Part shown: positions 7,569 to 33,691 of the stretch, in pieces
Layout: every line of letters starts with the position of its first letter
Position numbering within the stretch: the first letter of the stretch is position 1
NCBI GenBank assembly: GCA_963728405.1
Contig: CAVSJV010000005.1
Span: 192,001 to 256,000, forward strand
Length of the DNA: 64,000 nucleotides
Source of the DNA: Methanomassiliicoccaceae archaeon
GTDB lineage: Archaea; Thermoplasmatota; Thermoplasmata; Methanomassiliicoccales; Methanomassiliicoccaceae
Direction: 5' to 3'
The notes under the pieces: generated by a model
What the model was told of the DNA's origin: nothing
Seen by the model: the letters and a program-made list of their open reading frames with translations, nothing else
The model's database searches: none
Position numbers and translations under genes: made by a program

Positions 7569-7578
7569 TCCACCCACC

Positions 7579-7986
7579 TCAATGCCCGTGTTCGTGCTCC
7601 TCGATCTCAAGGTCCAGGGGGCCCTTGAGGGCCCCCAGGCTTTCCTCCATTAGCTCTTCCAACTCTTCGTCGCTCAGACCTATCAGCGCTGCCATAAACT
7701 TCATCTCTCCTTCGTCCACCGAAGGCGAGGTGATGCGGTTCACAATATCCGTGCCCAGCTCCAGATCTATTAGGTTGACCTTCAGTGAGCCGTAGGGCGT
7801 GGAGATGAATGCCTTGATGTGCCCCAGCAGACTTCCACGTCTTTCCATGACCTTCTTCCCGACATCGATCAAGACATCCTCGATCATGGATACGAACTGT
7901 TCTGTTGGTATTTCTTTGTGACATTGGAAATTTAATTTCATGCCGAACGATCCAGCATCGGCCAGTTCCTTGGAATCCTCGCTCAT
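7579..7986 (-). CDS. Hypothetical protein coupled to the CobW-type GTPase (GHIKAF motif, His-rich C-terminus)
   Basis: 135-aa ORF overlapping the upstream stop; ends EHEHGH. Confidence 0.75.
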
Positions 7987-8582
7987 TTTCCACCCACCAG
8001 TATTTGGACCAGCTGATCCACTCCCGTCCCATCCTTGGCCGATATGTAGGCGATCTTGGACTGCGGGCTGATGTCCTGGATGATCCGGGTCACCCGCTCA
8101 CGCAGCTGGTCGTCCGCCAGATCGATCTTGTTCACTGCGACGATGTCCGCCCCGGCGATCTGCCGGCTCAGGAACAGATGGGTCTCATTGAACAGCTTCA
8201 CTGCCCGGAAGGCATCGATGAGACATATGGTGAACATCCGTTCCTCACCCACCATGGCGGTTCGGACGAACTGTTTAATCTTTGATGGCAGGGCAATGCC
8301 GGTCGGCTCAATGATGATGAAGTCCGGCTGATACTCCTTGGCCAGTTGTCGGAGTGTATTCTGAAGGCTGCCGGACAGGGAGCAGCAGATGCATCCTTCG
8401 GTGATCTCCACGCTCTTCAGGCCGAAGGAATCGATGACCGCTCCATCCACTCCCACTTCACCCACCTCATTAACAATGATGGCGACTTTCTTGCCAGCCT
8501 TACTGAGGTCCGTGCCTATTCTTACTAGCAAAGTAGTCTTTCCGCTACCTAAAAAGCCCGCAAGCTGGCAGATTATCATCAT
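7983..8582 (-). CDS. CobW/HypB/UreG (COG0523-like) P-loop GTPase, putative metallochaperone
   Basis: GFLGSGKTT, NEVGEVGVDG, GCICC, EPTG, NKID. Confidence 0.9.
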   Translation of the reverse strand: MMIICQLAGFLGSGKTTLLVRIGTDLSKAGKKVAIIVNEVGEVGVDGAVIDSFGLKSVEITEGCICCSLSGSLQNTLRQLAKEYQPDFIIIEPTGIALPSKIKQFVRTAMVGEERMFTICLIDAFRAVKLFNETHLFLSRQIAGADIVAVNKIDLADDQLRERVTRIIQDISPQSKIAYISAKDGTGVDQLVQILVGGK

Positions 8583-8677
8583 AATTTTTAGGGCCTGTTC
8601 CTCATATAATTGTTACCATCGAAAGTAGTCAACGATAGTTATTGATGGGAAATCCAATAGTTATGGAGATGGCTGCG

Positions 8678-9530
8678 TCACTTGTCGAGGTCCACCGGCC
8701 CCTTCGCCTCTTCGACAAGCTCCTGGCCCCTCGACCGGGTCGATCGAATGATCTTCCCGACCTGCACGGTCATAAGGTCCTCGGCCGGCAGGGTACGAGC
8801 ACCTGAGTGTTCCTCGATGTAAGAGGCCTGCGTCTTGATCCCCTCATGGACCAGGCGCATCCCGAAGTGGGTGAGAAGAACGACCTCCGGTCCGACCTCC
8901 TTGGCGAGGGTGGCGGCGTCCTCGGTGCACAGATGCTTCGGTACCCGAGAGCCCAGGGGCCTGGTCAAGTTCAGTATGAGCACGCGGCACCCTTTATGGG
9001 CCGTGGCCAGCTCAGGGGTCAGCTCGGAGTCTCCGACGTAGGAGATGTCTCCGGTGGAGGTGTGGAATCGGAAACCCACCCCTGTGGGATCGCTGTGCGA
9101 GGTCCAGGTGGCCTCGATTTGCATGCCCTTGATCTCGAACGATGTCCCCGCCTTGACTTTGAGGACCTTGGCAGTGATGGATTGGTGATAGGTCGACACC
9201 GCGGGGCTGAAGCCGTTGGCCCCCTCGATGGCGCTCTGGCTCCCGACCAGCACGCCGGCCTTTTTGAACCCGCCCTTGGTCATACCCTCGATGAGCATCT
9301 CCGCGTCAGCGTAGTGGTCCGGGTGACAATGGGAGATGAGGACCGCATCGGTCTTGGCCGGGTCCAGGGCCAGGCGACGCATGTTCATCAGCGCCGATGG
9401 CCCGGGATCCAGATGTATTCTGGTGCCGTCGTTGATGTAGATGCCTCCAGTTGCCCTGATCTGATAGATGGTGGCGAATCGGCCGCCCCCGGTTCCCAAG
9501 AATGTTATGCTGGTCGTGTCCCTGCCCCAT
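8678..9530 (-). CDS. MBL-fold metallo-hydrolase; N-terminus frameshifted in a G run near 9526
   Basis: SHCHPDH motif, ITFLGTGGGRF N-terminus, THFG; ATG at 9530 needs one G removed to be in frame. Confidence 0.85.
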
Positions 9531-14566: not shown

Positions 14567-14679
14567 TGGTCCCGACTCCCGGATTTGAACCGGGGGCCTG
14601 CTGATATCGGCGGCTGTGATACCGGAAAACCGGAAACCCACTACAGTCAGCCGCTCTAGCCAGACTGAGCTAAGTCGGG
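14567..14679 (-). tRNA. tRNA-Tyr(GTA) with a 35-nt intron at 37/38 (14606-14640) and encoded CCA
   Basis: Reverse complement CCCGACTTAGCTCAGTCTGGCTAGAGCGGCTGACTGTAG-[intron]-ATCAGCAGGCCCCCGGTTCAAATCCGGGAGTCGGGACCA. Confidence 0.93.
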
Positions 14680-25609: not shown

Positions 25610-26285
25610 CTAAGCCACGGCCCGTAGCAACTTAACCGCCTCCTCCTCAGTGAGGTCATGCCATCGTTTGTAGGCGTCCGCCACGGCGAAAGGAGGCGAG
25701 CGGACGTTAAGGCAGAACAGCTCATCGACGTATCCAGCGATCATTTTGGCCGTATTGCCCGAGCCGGTCGGAACCGCTACCACGATCTTTTTAGGACGAT
25801 CGACACTCACCCTTTTAATAGCCGCCAGCATGGTGTAGCCCGATGCGAGCCCATCATCGACGAGGATGACGACCTTTCCGTTCAAGGAAGGAAAGGGCCG
25901 GTCGCCCCTCAAGGCCCGGTCCCGGGACCGACCCGCTTCGATGGCCCTCTTTTTTGCTAGTTCGACTGTCCGCTGCCGTGAGCCCCAGCTCCGTCATCAG
26001 ATCATCGTTCAGTATCAGGCCTCCGTTAAGGTCCACCGCCCCGAATCCCGCTTCCGGCTCATAGGGTATCTGTAACTTACGGACGATGACCACGTCCATA
26101 GATAATCCGAGGCCCTTCGCTATCTCGGTCCCGACCGGGATGCCTCCCGATGGTATCGCCAGGACGATAGCATCGGCCCCCCTGTATGGACTTAGGAAGC
26201 GGACCAGCATCCTGCCGGCATCGGTCCGGTCCTCGAAGACGAATCGCTTATCCCGGTACCTCGGCTCCTCTACGATCATGCCCAT
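25610..26285 (-). CDS. Phosphoribosyltransferase family protein; frameshift(s) near 25930-25980
   Basis: FEDRTDAG, AIPSGGIPVG, VRKL..P; second frame VILVDDGLASG. Confidence 0.85.
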
Positions 26286-26452: not shown

Positions 26453-26600
26453 GATGGTGATCGGTCTGCCCGAACTTAAGCCCCTGGCCATCTAGATGGC
26501 CTCATTATCTTAGTCAAAGCTCTAGGATAGAACTTTAGCTCCTTACTCGGTAAAACCTCCTTCTTCTTTTTCTTTTTAATAACTGCTGCTCTCCTGTTCT
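26453..26600. repeat. Repeat copy A: decayed tRNA-Pro 3' end plus ~130 bp flank shared with copy B
   Basis: GATGGTGATCGGTCTGCCCGAAC...CTCATTATCTT...GAACTTTAGCTCCTTACTCGGTA...CTCTCCTGTTCT aligns with 29586-29734. Confidence 0.85.
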
Positions 26601-26924
26601 AACACTCAAGACAGCTGTTTGGCTTCAATAACATGACATTAAACAGGAATGTGATTGCCATGGGGGCCTAATGATATCAAGTATCTTGAAGATGACTGGC
26701 TAAAGAAATAAATTTCCTTAAACAGAAAATAGTGGGCTGCGGACACGAAAAGTAAGAAGGAACCAGACCCCCCCTCCTTTCTTCATCAAATAGCTGTAAA
26801 GTAGTGACATATTCATTAATGAAAGAGGGAAGTAGTTTCGCAGCCCATTTCCTTGTTGCGCACCTTCACCTACCATTTTTGCGGTGGAGAGGTTACCGGC
26901 ATTGTCGTCCTCTTGATCTGGGCC

Positions 26925-27791
26925 TCAATTCTCCATTATGTGCACGATCGCCAGCCGCCAGGCGATACCTTCCGCGCCCAAGCTCGTCCAATAGCACTCT
27001 TTGTCGACCGTCGTCTGCGAGCTCAGGCTTATAAAGTAAGAGTAAGTGCCAAAGCCCGTGGACTCATTGACCATTCTCCAACCAATCGCCTGCACCTGCG
27101 GGAAGGCTTGGTAGTCCGGACCGTAGATGATGTTCATGCCGATCTGCGACGCATCGGCGTCATAGATCTCCACGCCATCGGACTGCATGCACCAGTAGGT
27201 AAAACCCGTACCGGCCACAAGCTGCGGCAGAGTGGCATTCATAAGAGCGCTGACATTATAGAGAGTGCTCACCGCGCCGATGAACTTGCCTTCATTGTCG
27301 AACACGGGACAGGCATACCCAGAGCCGCGTTCGATTCCCCGAGATTGGAAGGTATTGCTCATTGTGGGGACCTTGTACAAAAGGAGCTCGGCGGTCTTGT
27401 TGCCACCGCTCAGGTCCACGCCTTCGAGATAGCTGTACTGTGCCGGCTCCACAGCCTGCACGATGCCGTTCGTATCGAATGTCAAGATGTCGATGGCGAA
27501 GGGATTGAGCGCCAAGGTATGATTGATCTCATCTCGCGCCATCGTTCCGTTCAAGCCGGTCGCGCGCAACTGGAGGGCGAGGTCGTAAGTGAGGTTTCTT
27601 ACCATACCTATCTCTTCTTCGACCGCCGTCCTTCCCTTGTCCAAAATGGTGTTCATCTGCAGCTTTGTGGAGGAAGCTGTGCTATCCTTGCTCAGCTGTG
27701 CATCGGAGGTGAGCAGGACAACGGATACCGAGGTGGCAATGAGAAGGACCACTACCAAGATGGCCAAGAGCGCTTTAGCGCGGGTTATCAT
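26925..27791 (-). CDS. Membrane-anchored extracellular Cache-like domain protein with no output domain
   Basis: N-terminal TM helix; GYACPVF..GKFIGAVS, DGVEIYD..QIGMNI, W-R-L C-terminal strand. Confidence 0.75.
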   Translation of the reverse strand: MITRAKALLAILVVVLLIATSVSVVLLTSDAQLSKDSTASSTKLQMNTILDKGRTAVEEEIGMVRNLTYDLALQLRATGLNGTMARDEINHTLALNPFAIDILTFDTNGIVQAVEPAQYSYLEGVDLSGGNKTAELLLYKVPTMSNTFQSRGIERGSGYACPVFDNEGKFIGAVSTLYNVSALMNATLPQLVAGTGFTYWCMQSDGVEIYDADASQIGMNIIYGPDYQAFPQVQAIGWRMVNESTGFGTYSYFISLSSQTTVDKECYWTSLGAEGIAWRLAIVHIMEN

Positions 27792-28126
27792 GTCCGCCCG
27801 AACGCCTTTCGCGGTAATGAAGCCTAAGACTGCCGCCCCTGCTCCCACATGGCCTACTCGTAGAACGACGTCCCGACAAAGCCTCGGTGGATGTCCGCTT
27901 GAACACCACCAATTGACCACGGACAAACGGAAGGTCAATACCTAACGATCGAAGCGCACGAGCCGTCGCACCGTAACGCCGAAGGCATGAGGACGGAGCG
28001 CGGGTCGATAGATGAAGCAATGGTTCTTCGCTAGCAAGAAGCTAAGTGATCTGGGCGGGGAGGCGCTGGTAATAGTGTCCGACACCCCCTAATGACAACA
28101 GATTTGTGATGTCTGGATATAGATGA

Positions 28127-28144
28127 TGGCGGGTCTGCCTGGAC
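28127..28144. repeat. Copy C of the decayed tRNA-Pro 3' end (att-like)
   Basis: TGGCGGGTCTGCCTGGAC versus tRNA TGGTGGGTCTGCCCGAAT. Confidence 0.6.
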
Positions 28145-28546
28145 CGGTAACGCCACCCATCCATATGGTATTTAATTCGCAGCAATAACTCCCTTTTCGG
28201 CGTTTCTTGAGCTGAAGCCCATCCCTTATCCAACCCAACGAGATGGCGGTCGATCTTCTCGAGCTGAAAGCTGGCCATAAGCATCGATCCGGAACTCATC
28301 ATAATTGAGTTCGGAGTGAGAATGTCGGTCATGATTTGGTTGGGGCTAGGGTTGTTGCTGGCTGATGTATTCTTATTGCTTGGGTCATAGATCTCCTTGT
28401 AAGGGTTGAACTACTCCCCTCCTTTCCTATGCGATACTCTTCGCTTTCAAAGGAACGGCACGCAGCGAAGTTTAACCCACTGTGTCCCCGAGATGCTTGT
28501 GGCCTAGCACTGACCATGCCACTTTTCGTGGTATAGCGACTGACAA

Positions 28547-29368
28547 CTAGTGGCGGAGGAGCCATCGGAAAGCGTGCTCGATGAACTCCTTGCCGTCATG
28601 CTCAATGCAGCGGCCATGCGCGATTATCACCTTATCAAAGTCCCACGACAGCAGCCTCTCAAGCGACTCCCTCGCCCGATCTCGGTCAATGAAGGACATC
28701 TCGATGTCGAGGGGCACGCCGCCGTAGGGATACGCAACACCGGCGACCCTGAGCAACCTACTACGGAGGCGTTTGCCATCAGTCCGATGGCTGATCTGTA
28801 TCAGGTCGTCCAGGATTAGGGTCCTGGACCCCCTATGAAAGAAGATCACCTCCTCGATCAGAGGATTGCCCCTAAAGACCATCTGGTCGATGTCTCTTGC
28901 CCAGCCTGAGGCTGGAAAGTCGCCCAGGGTTCCCGTGAGCGGCAATCCTCTCTTTCCCAGCACCATGGCGCCTCTGAATCTGCCCTTGGTTTGAGGGGGC
29001 CCCCATAGCTCCGCCTCTGGGAACAGCGTATGCCACGACTCTAACCTCCATAGGTGTCTTGGCGTCCCTGCCACGATGTATCTCACTGGTCCCAGTGACC
29101 CAAGGTATTGCAATGTGCTGAAAGACAAAGGAACAGGAGAATCCACCCAGAGGGCGCCGCCATCGAGCTTGACGGCAACCATCCGGGTTGTGAATGGCAA
29201 TCCCATATCATGGACTATCGGGCCTTCAAATACCCATAGGTCCTTCGAGAACTCGCGCACATGATACTCTCGGTTCTTCGCGATAATAAATCTCCCGACT
29301 GCCTTGCGGGCATAACATGTCGATCGCTCCCCCTCCACCCGCGCCCAGATGATAAGGTCGCGCAACAA
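28547..29368 (-). CDS. DUF4336-family protein (MBL-like); true start probably near 29260
   Basis: FTTRMVAVKL..LWVDSP, GPVRYIVA..H, EVIFFH..TLILDD, WDFDKVIIAHG. Confidence 0.78.
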   Translation of the reverse strand: MLRDLIIWARVEGERSTCYARKAVGRFIIAKNREYHVREFSKDLWVFEGPIVHDMGLPFTTRMVAVKLDGGALWVDSPVPLSFSTLQYLGSLGPVRYIVAGTPRHLWRLESWHTLFPEAELWGPPQTKGRFRGAMVLGKRGLPLTGTLGDFPASGWARDIDQMVFRGNPLIEEVIFFHRGSRTLILDDLIQISHRTDGKRLRSRLLRVAGVAYPYGGVPLDIEMSFIDRDRARESLERLLSWDFDKVIIAHGRCIEHDGKEFIEHAFRWLLRH

Positions 29369-29585
29369 ATGGTCGGTTGAGATAGCGACGAAGTAGCTCG
29401 GGCATTCGGGACCGGATGAGACACGCCCCTTCTATGCGCAACTTCAGAGGGATGTGTTCTACGAAGAGCAGGACAGGATGCTCATGATGGGGGGTAGCTA
29501 ACAGTCCAATGCCGCCCCTTCGAGGTCAATCCAGATAGAACATATTTTCTATATACACATGAAGATAATGGTGCTGGATGAGAGT

Positions 29586-29734
29586 GATGGTGGGTCTGCC
29601 CGGACTTCCACCACTGACTAGCCAGATGTCTCATTATCTTGGTCAATGGTATTAGGATGGAACTTTAGCTCCTTACTCGGTATAACCTATTCCTTCTTTC
29701 TTTTTTCTTTGAAAAAGTAGTACTCTCCTGTTCT
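29586..29734. repeat. Repeat copy B: tRNA-Pro 3' end (15-bp exact) plus flank shared with copy A
   Basis: TGGTGGGTCTGCCCG (29588-29602) is identical to 33614-33628; 23-bp exact GAACTTTAGCTCCTTACTCGGTA shared with 26530-26552. Confidence 0.88.
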
Positions 29735-29950
29735 CCCATTTCCGTCAATATTCTGGCAAAACAGAACAGGAACTTAACAGGATAATTGTCACTGTTCCTA
29801 CTGTTTATGGGCAAATAGCCCCATTAGGTGTTATGCCCGGATTGAAGAGGTTTTTCTCTCACCAAACGACCAAGGTTGCACTTTATCATAATAGATACTG
29901 ATATAACCCTCCACCAATAACGTTGATTCAATGCCTAGGAGGCGTCGACG

Positions 29951-31398
29951 GTGAGGAGCGCCAACTCAAAGAGGGCGGCCCTTCTAGGGTCGATCCTTTT
30001 TCCTCTGGTGCTGGCTCAGTTCGTGTGTAGCTACGCCGGCTCAAATATGAACTGTGGCGGTCAACAGTATTGCCAGTGACCTGGGCACGGACTGTGCACG
30101 GCGTCCAGATAGCCATTACTCTTTTCACGCTCACCATGGCCGCCTTGATGATCCCCGGCAGCAAGCTGACCGACATCTGGGGCCGCAAGTTCACTTTCCG
30201 AATCGGGCTCATCGTTTACGGCTTGGGTGCGCTGGTGGGGGCATTGGCACCTGGCATAGGCATCCTATACATCGGTTATTCGATTATGCAAGGTGTAGGA
30301 TCGGCCCTCTTGATCCCGCCGGTCTATATCTTGGCCACAGTGAACTACACTGGTACGGAATCGCGCGCGAAAGCCTTTGGAGGGATCAGCGCCGCGGGGG
30401 GGATCGGAGCTGCACTCGGCCCGCTAGTCGGCGGCTTCTTGACTACCGCGATCAGCTGGAGAGCTTCCTTCATCCTACAGGCCCTGATCGTTTTGCTGAT
30501 CTTCGTCCTGGCCCGCCGGATCTCCGATCCTGGCGTACAGGGTACCAAGCCCAAGCTCGATATTATTGGAACCATACTCTCGGCATCGGGACTATTCTTT
30601 GTGGTATTCGGTATCCTCGCAACGGGAACCTATGGATGGTTCTCAGCGACGGTCTGGATACTTGTTGCGATAGGCATGATCATTATTGGCCTCTTCTTCC
30701 TGCACATCCGGTCCGCGGAGAGAAAGGGGAAGTCACCGCTCCTCTCGGCCCACATATTCCGTAACCGCACCTCTAACCTCGGGCTGGTGACGCAGTTTGT
30801 CCAATGGATGGTACTTCAAGGGGCCTTCTATGTGATCTCTGTGTTCTTCCAAACCGTTCGCGGGTTCAGTGCGGTTTCGGCAGGCCTGATAGTTACACCT
30901 GCAACGATCGGCATACTGCTGACAGGCACGAGAGCGAGGAAGCTGGCTACGAGAACCACTCAGAGGAGGCTCATCCGCATCGGCTTCGTTCTGACCACTG
31001 TCGGTATGATCCTGGTGATATTGCTACCATACCTCGCATCGGGTGCAGTCACTGCCAGCGTGTGGTATTTCGTTCCAGGTCTGTTCCTGATGGGGCTGGG
31101 GATCGGGACCATGCTCACATCCTCCGTTAATGTCGTCCAATCGGCGTTTCCAGAGAAAGACCAGGGTGAGATCTCTGGCCTATCGAGGAGCATGTCGAAC
31201 CTGGGCTCTTCCTTCGGGACAGCGGTTGCAGGATCGATACTGATCACGACGATTCTCCCGGAGACCCAGACCTATGGGTTTGCGCTCATCGCGATCATCC
31301 TCGTTTCGATCGTCGGCCTGATCGCGGCAATCCTTATTCCTCGCGATAGTGCCGCCCGATCCGAAAAGAAAGTTGAGGAGGGTGAAAATGCGGCTTAA
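29951..31398 (+). CDS. MFS transporter (DHA2-like, 14 TM); two frameshifts near 30052 and 30090
   Basis: GSKLTDIWGRK motif A, GAALGPLVGG; N-terminal ILFPLVLAQFVCSYAGSNMN lies in a different frame. Confidence 0.85.
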
Positions 31399-31573
31399 GC
31401 ATGGGAAATGGTCGAGTAAATATGTCACTGCGACCTTCGATGAGAATCGGTTCGTGCCCTGGCTTGGTCTCACCCAGAGTAAGTCAAACATAGAACAAGT
31501 TGAAGCAGAAATGAAAACGATGGAGCTAATGAAGATGTGTTGTGCTAAGTCATCCAGGAGGCGATTGTGTTGA
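31388..31573 (+). CDS. Small hypothetical protein (61 aa) overlapping both neighbours
   Basis: ATG overlaps the MFS end and the stop overlaps the GH15 start, suggesting translational coupling. Confidence 0.4.
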   Translation: MRLKHGKWSSKYVTATFDENRFVPWLGLTQSKSNIEQVEAEMKTMELMKMCCAKSSRRRLC

Positions 31574-33450
31574 TTTCTGGACCATTGAATGGTTACTGGC
31601 CCATCGAAGACTATGGGCTCATAGGCAACCGGCATGCGGCCGCTCTCGTGAACAGCGTCGGCTCGATCGATTGGCTGTGCTGGCCCCGATTCGACTCCCC
31701 ATCCATATTCGCAGGTATATTGGATCCGGACAAGGGTGGGAACTGGGACATCCAGCCGACAAGCGATTTCAAGAGCCATCATCGGTACCTGAAGGACACC
31801 AACGTCCTGGAGACGGTCTTCGAGTGTTCTCAGGGCAAGGTTGCGTTGCTCGATTTCATGGACATGACCTGGGCGGAACAGGATGTGGAAGGCGGCCCGC
31901 CGGGAAAGCTGATAAGAATCGTGAGAGGTCTGGACGGCAACGTGGAGATGAAATGCATCTGCCGGCCGCGACCCAACTATGCCCGCGACACCCCGAGAAT
32001 CAATCTAGGAGGCACCGAGGCATCCATTGGCCAGTTCGTGATCACCGGGCCTCAGGGGTGGCTGAAAGATGAGAACGACATGTCTCTTAATCAGACCTTC
32101 GTGGTCCGTCCGGGAGAGCAGCTCTACTTCACTTTGGCCAACGACCTGGACAAGAGCCCGCTGGCCTCCATCTCGGCAGCGCTGCAGTCGACCATGAGCT
32201 ACTGGAGGGGATGGGCTGATAAGTGCATGCTCCAGGGCCCTTACCGCGACATGGTAGTCCGCAGCGCCTTGACCCTTCAGTTGATGACCTACCCGCCCTC
32301 GGGAGCGATCGTGGCCGCGCCGACCACCTCGCTCCCCGAGACGATCGGTGGTGAGATGAACTGGGACTATCGCTTCACCTGGCTCCGGGACGGCTCCTAC
32401 ACGCTGCTCAGCCTGGTAATGGCCGGCTACCCTGACTTTGTCGAAAGATATGCCAAATGGGTGTACAAGACCGTCCAACCAGGTAACGTACAGATCCTCT
32501 ACCCCATCGTCCCTGAGGGGCAGACCAAGGAGGAGACCCTGGACCATCTGAGAGGGTACCGTGATTCGAGGCCGGTCCGCATCGGCAACGAGGCGGCCAA
32601 CCAGGTGCAACTCGATGTGTACGGCGAGCTGATGGGAGCGGGATACTTCGCATGGCGGTCGGGCTTGTTCACCCCTCCGGATGGCGGAAAGAGGATACGC
32701 GCGGTCCTTGATTGGGTATGCGATAACTGGCAAATGCCGGACGCCGGTATCTGGGAGGTGCGGGGAGGCAACCGCAATTTCGTCTATGGAAAGGCCATGC
32801 TGTGGTTAGCGCTGGACCGAGGGATCCAGATGTTCGAGGCGATGGATCTAGAAGGTGATATCAAGCGCTGGCGGGAGACGAAGGACATTATCCGCGAGGA
32901 GATCATGACCAAGGGATGGAGCACTAAGCTCAACGCCTTCAAACAATCGTTCGAGGACGAGTACCTGGACGCGGTCAATCTCATGCTTCCCATCATGGGC
33001 TTCATCGATGGGAAGGATCCCCGCATGCAGTCGACCATCGACGCCACATTGAAGAACTTGGTGGTCAACGGCCTGTGCTACCGGTACAACGAAGCTCCGG
33101 TGGGGGTGGCCGGGAAGGAGGCGACCTTCACATTATGTACCTTCTGGCTGGTTAGTGCTATGATCATGGCCGGTCGGGTCGAGGAGGCCCGCAAGATCTA
33201 CGATAATCTGCTGGCTAAGGCCACTCCCCTCGGATTGTTCGCCGAGGAGCTCGACCCGGAGACTGGAGCGCACGTCGGCAATTTCCCGCAGGCCTTCTCC
33301 CATCTGGGGGTCATACATGCGGCGGTCAACCTTGCCTACTTCGGAGGCATCGGCAAAATAGAATTCGACCTCAGGGAGGTGGCCAATAAGGTGTACGGGA
33401 GTAGCGAGGAAGGAAGGCCCATGGTGGTCAGCACCACGGCCCAAAAGTGA
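31567..33450 (+). CDS. Glycoside hydrolase family 15 (glucoamylase/trehalase-like)
   Basis: IEDYGLIGN, AAPTTSLPE..NWDYRFTWLRD, QLDVYGE, GIWEVRG, GNFPQAFSH. Confidence 0.93.
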   Translation: MLISGPLNGYWPIEDYGLIGNRHAAALVNSVGSIDWLCWPRFDSPSIFAGILDPDKGGNWDIQPTSDFKSHHRYLKDTNVLETVFECSQGKVALLDFMDMTWAEQDVEGGPPGKLIRIVRGLDGNVEMKCICRPRPNYARDTPRINLGGTEASIGQFVITGPQGWLKDENDMSLNQTFVVRPGEQLYFTLANDLDKSPLASISAALQSTMSYWRGWADKCMLQGPYRDMVVRSALTLQLMTYPPSGAIVAAPTTSLPETIGGEMNWDYRFTWLRDGSYTLLSLVMAGYPDFVERYAKWVYKTVQPGNVQILYPIVPEGQTKEETLDHLRGYRDSRPVRIGNEAANQVQLDVYGELMGAGYFAWRSGLFTPPDGGKRIRAVLDWVCDNWQMPDAGIWEVRGGNRNFVYGKAMLWLALDRGIQMFEAMDLEGDIKRWRETKDIIREEIMTKGWSTKLNAFKQSFEDEYLDAVNLMLPIMGFIDGKDPRMQSTIDATLKNLVVNGLCYRYNEAPVGVAGKEATFTLCTFWLVSAMIMAGRVEEARKIYDNLLAKATPLGLFAEELDPETGAHVGNFPQAFSHLGVIHAAVNLAYFGGIGKIEFDLREVANKVYGSSEEGRPMVVSTTAQK

Positions 33451-33613
33451 AACTGAGCCAGGTACGCGTCCTGTAACCAAGGCCTATTAGAACGATCGAG
33501 CTCGGATGCTCGATCGTTTGCAACCCCTCTTTGCCCATCATAGACCGTACTCTCCGAAAAACGGGAGGAAAATATAGAGAAAGCAGGATCCAATCATTAC
33601 TTGAGATGGATAG

Positions 33614-33691
33614 TGGTGGGTCTGCCCGAATTTGAATCGGGGTCTAAGGCTCCCAAAGCCCCAAGGATGGACCAAGCTACCCCACAGACCC
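33614..33691 (-). tRNA. tRNA-Pro(TGG) with encoded CCA
   Basis: Reverse complement GGGTCTGTGGGGTAGCTTGGTCCATCCTTGGGGCTTTGGGAGCCTTAGACCCCGATTCAAATTCGGGCAGACCCACCA. Confidence 0.93.

What the first reader, a model, noticed from the sequence alone, without database searches (positions are those of the whole stretch)
26453..29734. Conserved ~150-bp non-coding module attached to two of the att-like sites
Seen: 26453-26600 and 29586-29734 align end to end (CTCATTATCTT.GTCAA, an exact 23-mer GAACTTTAGCTCCTTACTCGGTA at 26530 and 29660, a pyrimidine tract, CTCTCCTGTTCT), although the adjacent cargo genes are unrelated. No shared intact ORF was found. Inference: a cis element (integrase arm sites, an attC-like signal, an origin or a small RNA) carried by each cassette, which would define the family.
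Basis: partly seen in the sequence, partly recalled or inferred. Interest (0 to 1): 0.7.

Follow-up and report, generated by a model that had tools for sequence, protein, structure and literature searches.

The report
Integrative-element end repeated beside tRNA-Pro fragments
The repeated 150-bp stretch is the conserved non-coding end of a family of mobile DNA elements that insert into a proline tRNA gene of Methanomassiliicoccus archaea; several decayed copies are stacked here, which explains the locus but is a familiar kind of biology.

Summary
Window 26453-26600 and 29586-29734 are true repeats (78% identity, E 4e-26), non-coding and without a conserved fold. Each is a ~22-nt copy of the 3' end of tRNA-Pro(UGG) (gene at 33614-33691, minus strand) plus a ~125-nt module lying 5' of it in tRNA sense. 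The genome holds four copies. Relatives in the order Methanomassiliicoccales hold more, and all of them abut tRNA-Pro-type cores.

Two relatives (G020, G016) carry intact ~16-kb elements with the layout tRNA-Pro | integrase (stop codon abutting the tRNA end) - primase-polymerase - cargo | module | core. Remnants of that integrase's C-terminus follow several internal cores, including window site C.

The module is therefore the integrase-distal arm ("P arm", attR side) of the attachment site of a tRNA-Pro-targeting tyrosine-integrase element family. The window holds three decayed, integrase-less elements stacked in tandem. Their position as element ends is shown; a protein-binding function is inferred.

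Split (SSV-type) integrase, small RNA, attC-like site and casposon readings were tested and not supported. It is a new member of a known kind, of moderate interest.

The parts
33614..33691 (-). tRNA-Pro(UGG) gene, the integration target. Its last ~24 nt (33614-33637) are the sequence repeated downstream as the att core.
   Evidence: ARAGORN; repeat family D5; sequence printed; model R1 positions 84-111 match 33612-33639.
29735..33613 (.). Body of cassette 1 (nearest the tRNA): GH15/trehalase-like gene 31567-33450 (+) and MFS transporter 30070-31398 (+). No integrase.
   Evidence: Pfam. The whole cassette is present a second time on contig C13 at 87-95% identity.
29608..29734 (-). Module B, the P arm (integrase-distal arm) of the attachment site, read in tRNA sense on the minus strand.
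   Evidence: R1 98.4 bits, E 3.7e-30; core-less profile E 1.2e-21.
29586..29607 (-). att core B, a copy of the tRNA-Pro 3' end (13-mer core at 29592-29604).
28205..29585 (.). Body of cassette 2: DUF4336 gene 28547-29368 (-) plus two small ORFs with no family match.
   Evidence: Pfam.
28144..28204 (-). Degenerate module at site C.
   Evidence: R1 match 28125-28204, 19.5 bits, E 1.5e-5, model 32-111. Not found by the core-less profile.
28125..28143 (-). att core C (13-mer at 28131-28143).
28030..28120 (+). Remnant of the integrase C-terminal coding region (P' arm), antisense to the tRNA, just past core C.
   Evidence: blastn 80% over 105 nt to the block that follows tRNA-Pro in G023. tblastn 20 aa at 75% to the G023 integrase remnant, E 1e-4 in a small database.
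26601..28029 (.). Body of cassette 3: membrane Cache-type sensor gene 26925-27938 (-).
   Evidence: Pfam PF22309 and dCache_1.
26478..26600 (-). Module A, the P arm of the outermost (attR-like) junction.
   Evidence: R1 84.3 bits, E 9.7e-26; core-less profile E 8.4e-18.
26453..26477 (-). att core A, a degenerate tRNA-Pro 3' end (13-mer at 26462-26474). Chromosomal flank (PRTase gene) lies beyond it.
   Evidence: The flank is syntenic with G023.

Best explanation
The module is the conserved, non-coding, integrase-distal arm (P arm in lambda nomenclature; part of attR once integrated) of the attachment site of a family of integrative elements of Methanomassiliicoccales. These elements insert into the 3' end of tRNA-Pro genes by means of a tyrosine integrase.

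An intact element reads, in tRNA sense: tRNA-Pro | integrase gene on the opposite strand, its stop codon touching the tRNA end (its last codons form the P' arm) | primase-polymerase replication gene | cargo | module | copy of the tRNA 3' end.

Repeated integration at this target stacked elements in tandem. Internal deletions then removed the integrase and replication genes. What remains is cargo genes bracketed by a short integrase C-terminal remnant on the left and module + core on the right. The window holds three such relics.

Shown: the module is the terminal sequence of these elements, it is tied to tRNA-Pro cores, it is non-coding and unstructured, and its conservation is at the level of primary sequence.

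Inferred: the conserved blocks (TTACCGAG / TTGACCGAG repeat, GATAATGA, ATCTGG) are binding sites for the integrase and/or accessory proteins that assemble the recombination complex. In this genome no tRNA-Pro-type integrase was found, so the array is probably frozen.
For: (1) The repeat is real, and there are exactly four copies in the genome, each next to a tRNA-Pro-type core.

(2) The slot between tRNA-Pro(UGG) and the PRTase gene is syntenic in G023. It holds a different array of att-bounded cassettes in G000, G023 and G015. No integrase, plasmid or virus family was found among 73 + 56 ORFs scanned.

(3) G020 and G016 have PF00589 integrase ORFs of 358 and 379 aa, 74% identical to each other, ending at the base next to the tRNA-Pro 3' end. 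A shared ~1000-aa primase-polymerase gene lies beside each (66% identity over 400 aa). Module + core sits 16-17 kb away at the far end. That is 2 of 2 intact elements examined.

(4) Integrase C-terminal remnants, antisense, directly follow tRNA-Pro in G023 (aa 259-358, 66%, E 2e-35) and in G015. They also follow internal cores G023_11921, _22214 and _24606 and window site C.

(5) A profile of the module without its core gives 12 hits (11 unique places) in 235,594 bases of relatives' loci. Of these, 8 unique hits are followed by a strict Pro-type core and 3 by a degenerate one, spanning three families of the order.

(6) There is no conserved secondary structure on either strand: 0 covarying pairs, -2.95 and -3.61 kcal/mol, single-copy z-scores from -1.9 to +1.1. 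No reading frame is conserved. So conservation is of the DNA sequence itself.

(7) Both arms carry TATTGA(C/A)-N14-16-CTGG(A/C)T in mirror orientation around the core.

(8) The same geometry has been described for haloarchaeal SNJ2-type elements: the core is a tRNA 3' end, the Int C-terminus is encoded next to the core, and the P/P' arms are conserved (passages of PMC5861418).
Against: No binding or recombination data exist, so the function of the module as a protein-binding arm is inference.

The mirror-repeat score is significant in only 2 of 7 arm pairs (3/2000 and 48/2000 shuffles reach it; the other five range from 217/2000 to 1925/2000). The integrase-side motifs are also explained by coding for the integrase C-terminus.

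No 8-mer is repeated between the arms in G020 apart from stretches inside the integrase coding region.

The module is degenerate or absent at some cores: window site C, G023_17064 and G023_24606.

The second array, on C13, is not headed by a tRNA-Pro gene.

No free circular or viral copy was found: 0 hits in viral contigs and only chance hits in metagenome contigs.

The core-less profile does not reach the similarly organised arms of the sister elements that target tRNA-Ala.
Confidence: 0.7

Rival explanations
1. Transcriptional signal of the integrase gene that works only in the excised circle. On the integrase-sense strand (window + strand) the module carries an oligo-T tract about 90-105 nt past the core. 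This would terminate, or retro-regulate as lambda sib does, integrase transcripts only when the two element ends are joined. It could coexist with an arm function.
For: 8 of 11 copies have a run of 5 or more T on the integrase-sense strand, 86-108 nt from the core. The module lies directly downstream of the integrase stop across the core in the reconstructed attP. That oligo-T tracts terminate archaeal transcription, and the lambda sib precedent, are recalled knowledge and not from any call.
Against: 3 of 11 copies lack such a run (C13c, C13d, G015). The best-conserved blocks lie nearer the core, not in the T tract. There are no expression data.
Confidence: 0.12
2. Promoter plus short leader or small RNA transcribed in tRNA sense from the A/T-rich box. 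It would read through the core, out of the element when integrated, or antisense into the integrase gene when circular.
For: There is an A/T-rich, TATA-like tract about 25-30 nt upstream of the conserved GGTTTTACCGAG block (alignments; the reading as a TATA box is by eye and from recall). A conserved ATG in GATAATGA lies 29-33 nt before the core.
Against: No conserved fold and 0 covarying pairs. No Rfam family in the window apart from a 5S rRNA and two tRNAs. The ATG frame relative to the core differs in winA, G016 and G020, and G015 has in-frame stops.
Confidence: 0.07
3. Integron-like platform. The module + core would be an attC-like signal that lets integrase-less cassettes be excised and re-inserted by an integrase supplied in trans.
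For: The cassettes are small (about 1.4-5.1 kb between successive cores), integrase-less and carry ordinary metabolic genes. The same cargo (GH15, MFS, PsiE) appears in different order and orientation in different species. Cassette B occurs at a second locus.
Against: Integrase C-terminal remnants at the cassette left ends indicate decay from full elements. Cargo divergence between G000 and G023 (83-84%) is close to that of the flanking core gene (80%), which fits vertical descent. There is no attC-like hairpin. No integrase sits beside the array in G000, G023 or G015. The integron-integrase model scores far below its cutoff for the family's integrase.
Confidence: 0.06
4. Casposon relics. The core would be a target-site duplication at the tRNA-Pro 3' end, and the flanking mirror repeats would be terminal inverted repeats.
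For: The A. boonei casposon integrates, often in tandem, at the 3' end of tRNA-Pro with ~15-bp duplications, and family-2 casposons occur in M. luminyensis (passages of PMC9939771). Mirror motifs flank the cores.
Against: No Cas1 in G000 (93.75% complete), G020, G023 or G072. Of the other two genomes searched, G015's Cas1 is on another contig than its array and G016 has only a sub-threshold match on contig C13, not on C2 where its element lies. The mirror motifs start 12-15 nt from the core rather than at the termini. Tyrosine-integrase genes or their remnants occupy the left ends.
Confidence: 0.03
5. N-terminal exon and promoter of an SSV-type (suicidal) integrase gene that is split by integration.
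For: The conserved ATG opens a frame that runs through the core in 7 of 11 copies.
Against: The family's integrase is intact in the integrated state and lies on the opposite strand, ending at the core. All three sense frames are closed upstream of the ATG (read from the sequence). The frame differs in the two intact elements. No integrase-like coding similarity lies downstream in the same sense.
Confidence: 0.02

Closest known systems
Lambda-type attP with P and P' arms flanking a short core (lambda facts recalled, plus passages of review PMC8371274)
   Same: An element-borne attachment site much longer than the identity segment. There is conserved DNA on both sides of a ~20-nt core shared with the target. 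The integrase gene lies next to the site and is transcribed towards it.
   Different: No arm-type repeats or accessory-factor sites have been demonstrated here. The P' arm lies inside the integrase coding region. The host is an archaeon. The review passages I read say that archaeal att sites need extra nucleotides outside the conserved sequence, and my term search found no mention of arm-type sites in that review.
SNJ2-type integration modules of haloarchaeal pleolipoviruses and related elements (PMC5861418, passages)
   Same: The core overlaps the 3' end of a tRNA gene. The Int C-terminus is encoded immediately beside the core. Highly conserved P and P' arms are reported.
   Different: Membership of the Methanomassiliicoccus integrase in the SNJ2 family is not shown. 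It has only generic Xer-like matches below all curated cutoffs, and the single phage-record match is a distant one to Nitratiruptor phage NrS-1. The accessory Orf2/Orf3 genes were not looked for. The target is tRNA-Pro rather than tRNA-Met.
Tandem and decayed integrated elements in archaeal chromosomes ('gene capture'; integrase loss after integration)
   Same: Several elements integrated in tandem at one locus, with loss of the integrase gene after integration (passages of PMC8371274).
   Different: The She et al. 'gene capture' papers were seen only as reference-list entries. As I recall them, they concern SSV-type integrases whose gene is split on integration. Here the integrase is not split, and decay is by internal deletion. 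My searches found no description for Methanomassiliicoccales.
Integron attC sites
   Same: A short conserved site closes each promoter-poor gene cassette in an array next to a fixed attachment point.
   Different: There is no imperfect-palindrome fold, no adjacent IntI-type integrase, the core is tRNA-derived, and the cassettes bear integrase-gene remnants.
Family-2 casposons inserting at the tRNA-Pro 3' end (PMC9939771, passages)
   Same: Same target gene end in a related archaeal phylum, with tandem insertions and short direct repeats.
   Different: No Cas1 near any array and none in G000, G020, G023 or G072. No terminal inverted repeats at the element termini.

Membership tests
tRNA-targeting tyrosine-integrase integrative element (integrase not split by integration) | Element bounded by direct repeats of the 3' part of a tRNA gene | tested here: met
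   Cores at 33614-33637, 29586-29607, 28125-28143 and 26453-26477. The same is seen in G023, G015, G020, G016, G072 and G082.
tRNA-targeting tyrosine-integrase integrative element (integrase not split by integration) | Tyrosine integrase gene at one end, intact in the integrated state | tested here: met
   Met in relatives G020 (358 aa) and G016 (379 aa), PF00589 E 1e-7 and 4e-9. In the window itself only a ~30-aa remnant survives at 28030-28120, so the window copies are relics.
tRNA-targeting tyrosine-integrase integrative element (integrase not split by integration) | Excision to a circle and re-integration | not testable with these tools
   No sequencing run was listed for this stretch. No free copy in the viral or metagenome scans.
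Lambda-like complex attP (arm-type binding sites) | Conserved element-side sequence outside the core | tested here: met
   About 110 nt is conserved among 10 copies from 5 genomes, 76% mean column identity. It is found without the core by a profile.
Lambda-like complex attP (arm-type binding sites) | Repeated arm-type motifs in both arms | tested here: inconclusive
   There is a T(T/G)ACCGAG direct pair in the module and TATTGAM-N14-16-CTGGMT mirrored in both arms, but only 2 of 7 arm pairs beat shuffles.
Lambda-like complex attP (arm-type binding sites) | Integrase or accessory protein binds the arm | not testable with these tools
   Needs EMSA, footprinting or recombination assays.
SSV-type (suicidal) integrase module | att site inside the integrase ORF, so that the gene is split into int(N) and int(C) by integration | tested here: not met
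   The integrase is whole when integrated and ends at the core on the opposite strand. There is no conserved ORF across the core.
Integron | attC imperfect inverted repeats that fold, with an IntI gene next to attI | tested here: not met
   No conserved fold on either strand. No integrase beside the arrays of G000, G023 or G015. TIGR02249 scores 24.8 bits against a cutoff of 265.
Casposon | Cas1 casposase (with PolB) and terminal inverted repeats abutting the duplication | tested here: not met
   PF01867: 0 matches in G000, G020, G023 and G072. The G015 match is on another contig than its array, and G016 has only a sub-threshold match on another contig than its element. The mirror motifs are internal, not terminal. 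PolB was not searched for.
SNJ2-type integrase system | Integrase of the SNJ2 clade with accessory Orf2/Orf3 | not tested
   Only the site geometry was compared. There was no SNJ2 match at E 1e-3 in the phage collection, and the clade-defining residues were not examined.
Known RNA family (Rfam) | Match at gathering score | tested here: not met
   Only a 5S rRNA and two tRNAs were found in the window.

The most novel reading that the evidence does not exclude
The tRNA-Pro slot works as an integron-like gene-cassette platform in Methanomassiliicoccales. Each relic keeps a complete P-core-P' junction, so whenever a cognate element enters the cell its integrase could excise, reshuffle or transfer the integrase-less cassettes in trans. 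Examples of such cargo are the MFS/GH15 cassette and the single MtaA-like methyltransferase gene of G072. The module would be the cis signal that makes this possible, and could also act as a state-dependent terminator of the integrase gene.
Probability: 0.12. Interest if true: 0.7.

Novelty: new member of a known kind. Interest (0 to 1): 0.35.

Why it matters
It explains a puzzling repeat and annotates about 7 kb of the window as three relics of integrative elements. It defines a previously undescribed element family of Methanomassiliicoccales, made up of a tyrosine integrase, a primase-polymerase and a ~190-nt composite attachment site on tRNA-Pro. It identifies the tRNA-Pro-to-PRTase interval as a hypervariable slot through which transporters, glycosidases, sensors, defence genes (Type ISP R-M, SIR2) and even a methanogenesis-type methyltransferase are exchanged. 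The module and core give a practical sequence signature for delimiting such islands in MAGs. The conserved arm also offers a test case for whether archaeal integrases use extended, lambda-like attachment sites.

Tried and rejected
- **Viral contigs:** pattern scan for the conserved block gave 0 hits.
- **Metagenome contigs:** 2 hits. Like the one Saccharibacteria hit in genome contigs, they are low-GC and have no tRNA core beside them, so I read them as chance.
- **Sequencing runs:** none was listed and no RNA holder was listed, so excision junctions and transcription could not be examined.
- **Earlier notes:** nothing for this genome.
- **Homology with the tRNA-Ala arms:** the arms of the sister elements look alike by eye, but the core-less profile gives nothing below E 2.8 outside the four modules. 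I claim architecture only.
- **Whole-arm mirror symmetry:** mixed result.
- **Excisionase-like neighbour:** the small ORFs next to the module in G020 and G016 are unrelated (E 18) and have no family.
- **G072 "minimal integrase element":** my first reading was wrong. The 380-aa ORF is URO-D/MtaA-like.
- **MFS cargo:** the G082 and window MFS genes are only 25% identical, so they are not a shared cassette.
- **Head of the C13 array:** only an unrelated integrase fragment (35.7% over 70 aa to the integrase beside tRNA-Gly) and a tRNA-Ile-like fragment. There is no tRNA-Pro gene.
- **Phage records:** one distant match only.
Full report
**Observation.** The two stretches are present as described. 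The exact 23-mer lies at 26530-26552 and 29660-29682. The pair aligns over its whole length. BLAST against the 2.73-Mb genome gives 78% identity over 149-153 nt, E about 4e-26. The neighbouring genes are unrelated: a Cache-type membrane sensor at 26925-27938 versus an MFS transporter at 30070-31398 and a GH15 hydrolase at 31567-33450.

**Link to tRNA-Pro.** ARAGORN finds tRNA-Pro(UGG) at 33614-33691 on the minus strand. The left ~22-28 nt of each repeat also matches 33606-33633, the 3' end of that tRNA (family D5). A third partial copy of the tRNA end lies at about 28125-28143. In tRNA sense (window minus strand) the order is: tRNA-Pro, GH15 + MFS, module B, core B, DUF4336, (degenerate module) core C, Cache sensor, module A, core A, PRTase gene. 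The module therefore lies 5' of each displaced tRNA end, on the element side.

**Copies elsewhere in the genome.** The assembly (18 contigs, 93.75% complete) has two more full copies on contig C13, at 169671-169813 and 177092-177238. These carry 24/24 and 23/24 matches to the tRNA-Pro end. A profile of the module with its core removed recovers exactly these four places (E 2e-22 to 8e-18), and the next hit has E 2.8. The whole of cassette B (module, MFS, GH15) is duplicated on C13 at 87-95% identity. No tRNA-Pro gene heads the C13 array, and I cannot tell whether C13 is a second locus or strain heterogeneity in the MAG.

**Relatives.** Record titles of matching genomes place the organism in Methanomassiliicoccus. 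By BLAST, 8 of 24 genomes of the family (G000 included) match. Module-length matches are in G015, G016, G022 and G023, and three others match only ~21 nt of the tRNA end.
- In G023 the locus is syntenic with the window: RIO kinase, Ham1, epimerase, membrane protein, tRNA-Pro, array, PRTase, alpha/beta-hydrolase.
- The G023 array is different. It has five att-like cores downstream of the tRNA, three of them with a module. The cargo includes ADH genes, a CLC channel, GH15 + PsiE, MFS and DUF2252.
- G015 has tRNA-Pro, MFS (inverted relative to the window), then module + core.
- None of the 56 ORFs scanned in these relatives, nor the 73 in G000 loci, is an integrase, plasmid or virus gene inside an array.

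**Wider distribution.** A sequence-only covariance model of module + core matched 59 of 151 genomes of the order (G000 included). Most of those matches cover only model positions ~83-111, which is the tRNA-Pro gene end itself. By my reading of the table, about 20 other genomes have matches that start at model position 36 or earlier, with E from 4e-27 down to about 8e-3, and the weak ones are unverified. The core-less profile confirmed 11 unique places in the relatives' loci I held (235,594 bases), in three families. All are followed by a Pro-type core, 8 strict and 3 degenerate. In the window the model with filters off finds A, B, a weak C (28125-28204, E 1.5e-5) and the tRNA end.

**What the module is not.**
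- *Coding:* no frame is consistently open in 11 copies. The conserved ATG in GATAATGA is in frame with the core and open in 7 of 11. It has in-frame stops in G015 and sits in other frames in winA, G016 and G020. The copies also differ by 1- and 4-nt indels.
- *Structured RNA or folded DNA site:* RNAalifold gives -2.95 kcal/mol (tRNA sense) and -3.61 kcal/mol (opposite strand), with 0 compensatory pairs. Six single copies fold no better than shuffles, with z from -1.9 to +1.1. Rfam finds nothing there.

**What it is.** A PF00589 scan of five relatives showed integrase ORFs right next to tRNA-Pro in G020 and G016.
- In G020, tRNA-Pro(UGG) is followed on the opposite strand by a 358-aa integrase whose stop codon abuts the tRNA 3' end. 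Next come a 1002-aa primase-polymerase, Schlafen/AlbA and DNA-methylase genes among others, then module + core 16.4 kb away. A further DUF1214/1254 cassette with its own module lies beyond.
- In G016 the same arrangement sits at tRNA-Pro(GGG): a 379-aa integrase, a 1055-aa replication protein, a Type ISP R-M enzyme and a SIR2 gene, with module + core 16.7 kb away.
- The two integrases are 74% identical. The replication proteins are 66% identical over 400 aa.

**Integrase remnants.** With these integrases as queries, C-terminal remnants appear on the antisense strand directly after several cores:
- tRNA-Pro in G023 (aa 259-358, 66%, E 2e-35);
- tRNA-Pro in G015 (44-49 aa);
- the internal cores G023_11921, _22214 and _24606;
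- window core C (28030-28120; 20 aa at 75% to the G023 remnant, E 1e-4 in a small database; also 80% nucleotide identity over 105 nt).

Each cassette therefore began as an integrase-bearing element. The "second conserved block" I had noticed downstream of cores is the integrase gene's 3' end.

**Nomenclature.** In lambda terms the integrase side is P' and the module is P. The tRNA junction is attL (B-O-P'), internal junctions are P-O-P', and the outermost (module A, core A, PRTase flank) is attR (P-O-B').

**State in this genome.** G000 has no tRNA-Pro-type integrase. Its closest homologues are C18:19159-20211 (52%), C7:359048-360119 (frameshifted) and C4:277925-278899 (40%). All three abut tRNA-Ala(UGC)-type cores. 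The window array is therefore probably immobile unless a cognate element enters the cell.

**How it probably works.** Conservation is at the level of primary sequence and concentrated in blocks: GGTTTTACCGAG, AGCTAAAGTT, TTGACCGAGATAATGA and ATCTGG, about 15 nt before the 13-nt core.
- T(T/G)ACCGAG occurs twice in direct orientation.
- TATTGA(C/A)-N14-16-CTGG(A/C)T occurs in the module and, mirrored, in the integrase-side arm.
- The whole-arm mirror score beats shuffles clearly only for G023 (3/2000) and window B x site C (48/2000), and not for five other pairs. The integrase-side motifs also encode the conserved ...SID(N/K)...TGY C-terminus.

I therefore infer, but have not shown, that the module is a binding platform for the integrase and/or accessory proteins. 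The SNJ2 study of haloarchaeal elements reports the same geometry and "highly conserved" P/P' arms, and proposes that an accessory winged-helix protein binds them (passages). The review of archaeal tyrosine recombinases states that archaeal att sites need nucleotides outside the shared sequence, that tandem integration occurs, and that integrase genes are lost after integration. It does not mention Methanomassiliicoccales (passages).

**Secondary possibility.** The oligo-T run on the integrase-sense strand (8 of 11 copies, 86-108 nt from the core) could terminate integrase transcripts only in the circular form. The precedents (archaeal oligo-T termination, lambda sib) are recalled, not from any call.

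**Rivals tested.**
- *SSV-type split integrase:* refuted by the intact, oppositely oriented integrases.
- *Casposons:* the rival was raised because the review passages say the A. boonei casposon targets the tRNA-Pro 3' end in tandem, and that family-2 casposons occur in M. luminyensis. There is no Cas1 in G000, G020, G023 or G072. In the other two genomes searched, G015's Cas1 is on another contig than its array and G016 has only a sub-threshold match on another contig than its element. The mirror motifs are not terminal.
- *Integron-like cassettes:* there is no attC-like fold and no adjacent integrase. Cargo divergence between G000 and G023 (83-84%) is similar to that of the flanking core gene (80%), and integrase remnants point to decay. 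Trans-mobilisation of the relics is not excluded.

**Novelty and limits.** Searches of the paper library found no description of this element family or of tRNA-Pro arrays in Methanomassiliicoccales (listings only, apart from the three papers read in passages). Subscription journals are not covered. The kind of thing (an att arm of a tRNA-targeting integrative element, tandem decayed islands) is well known, so I rate it a new member of a known kind. There are no expression or excision data: no sequencing run was listed. Function rests on position, conservation and analogy.

Noticed in passing
G000 contig C13:177092-177238 versus C13:169671-169813 and window 29586-29734: Module C13d is a mosaic. 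Its distal 71 columns are 96% identical to window B (61% to C13c). The 71 columns next to the core are 99% identical to C13c (68% to window B). The switch is at the first ACCGAG motif. This suggests gene conversion between neighbouring copies, or a second exchange point about 75 nt from the core.
   Followed up: partly
G000 C18:19159-20211, C4:277925-278899, C7:359048-360119; att fragments listed: A sister family of integrases (40-52% identical to the tRNA-Pro type) abuts fragments of the tRNA-Ala(UGC) 3' end. Their far-side arms have a similar layout by eye: an A-rich tract, GGTTT, ATTGA, then CTGGCTA/TAGCCAG about 8-14 nt before the core. ATATCCAG follows the core in both families. A profile search did not confirm homology.
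   Followed up: partly
G000 C7:63612-63719 (minus strand): There is a weak module-like match (24.7 bits, E 4.9e-5) 3.4 kb downstream of tRNA-Pro(GGG) at C7:67157-67232, enclosing AsnC-type regulators and ABC-transporter fragments. It is possibly another relic at the second tRNA-Pro gene.
   Followed up: partly
L086 (G072:C1) 7577-8917: A single-gene cassette sits at tRNA-Pro(UGG) in another family of the order: a 380-aa URO-D/MtaA-like methyltransferase (PF01208, E 2.5e-48) closed by module + core. A paralogous URO-D gene lies just beyond. A methanogenesis-type gene appears to be carried as island cargo.
   Followed up: no
L085 (G016:C2) 66001-86000: The intact element at tRNA-Pro(GGG) carries a 1654-aa Type ISP restriction-modification enzyme and a SIR2-like protein, so it is a mobile defence island.
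   Followed up: no
window 25610-26285 (minus strand): The phosphoribosyltransferase gene flanking the array is split into two overlapping ORFs (100 and 143 aa), each matching part of PF00156. The G023 orthologue is one ORF of 224 aa. Likewise the GH15 copy on C13 is split into two ORFs. These are either frameshift pseudogenes or assembly indels.
   Followed up: no
window 14570-14679 (minus strand): Rfam reports a tRNA of 110 nt (55.7 bits) that ARAGORN did not call. It is probably an intron-containing tRNA gene.
   Followed up: no
G023:C1:33755-33860: A strong module match (50.7 bits, E 3.6e-13) lies on a different contig from the G023 tRNA-Pro array. Its context was not examined.
   Followed up: no
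window 29734-29790 and 26600-26660: Just beyond the module, on the cargo side, both window copies have an inverted pair: CTCCTGTTCT, then 40-50 nt, then AACAGGA. It is not obviously shared by the copies in other genomes.
   Followed up: no
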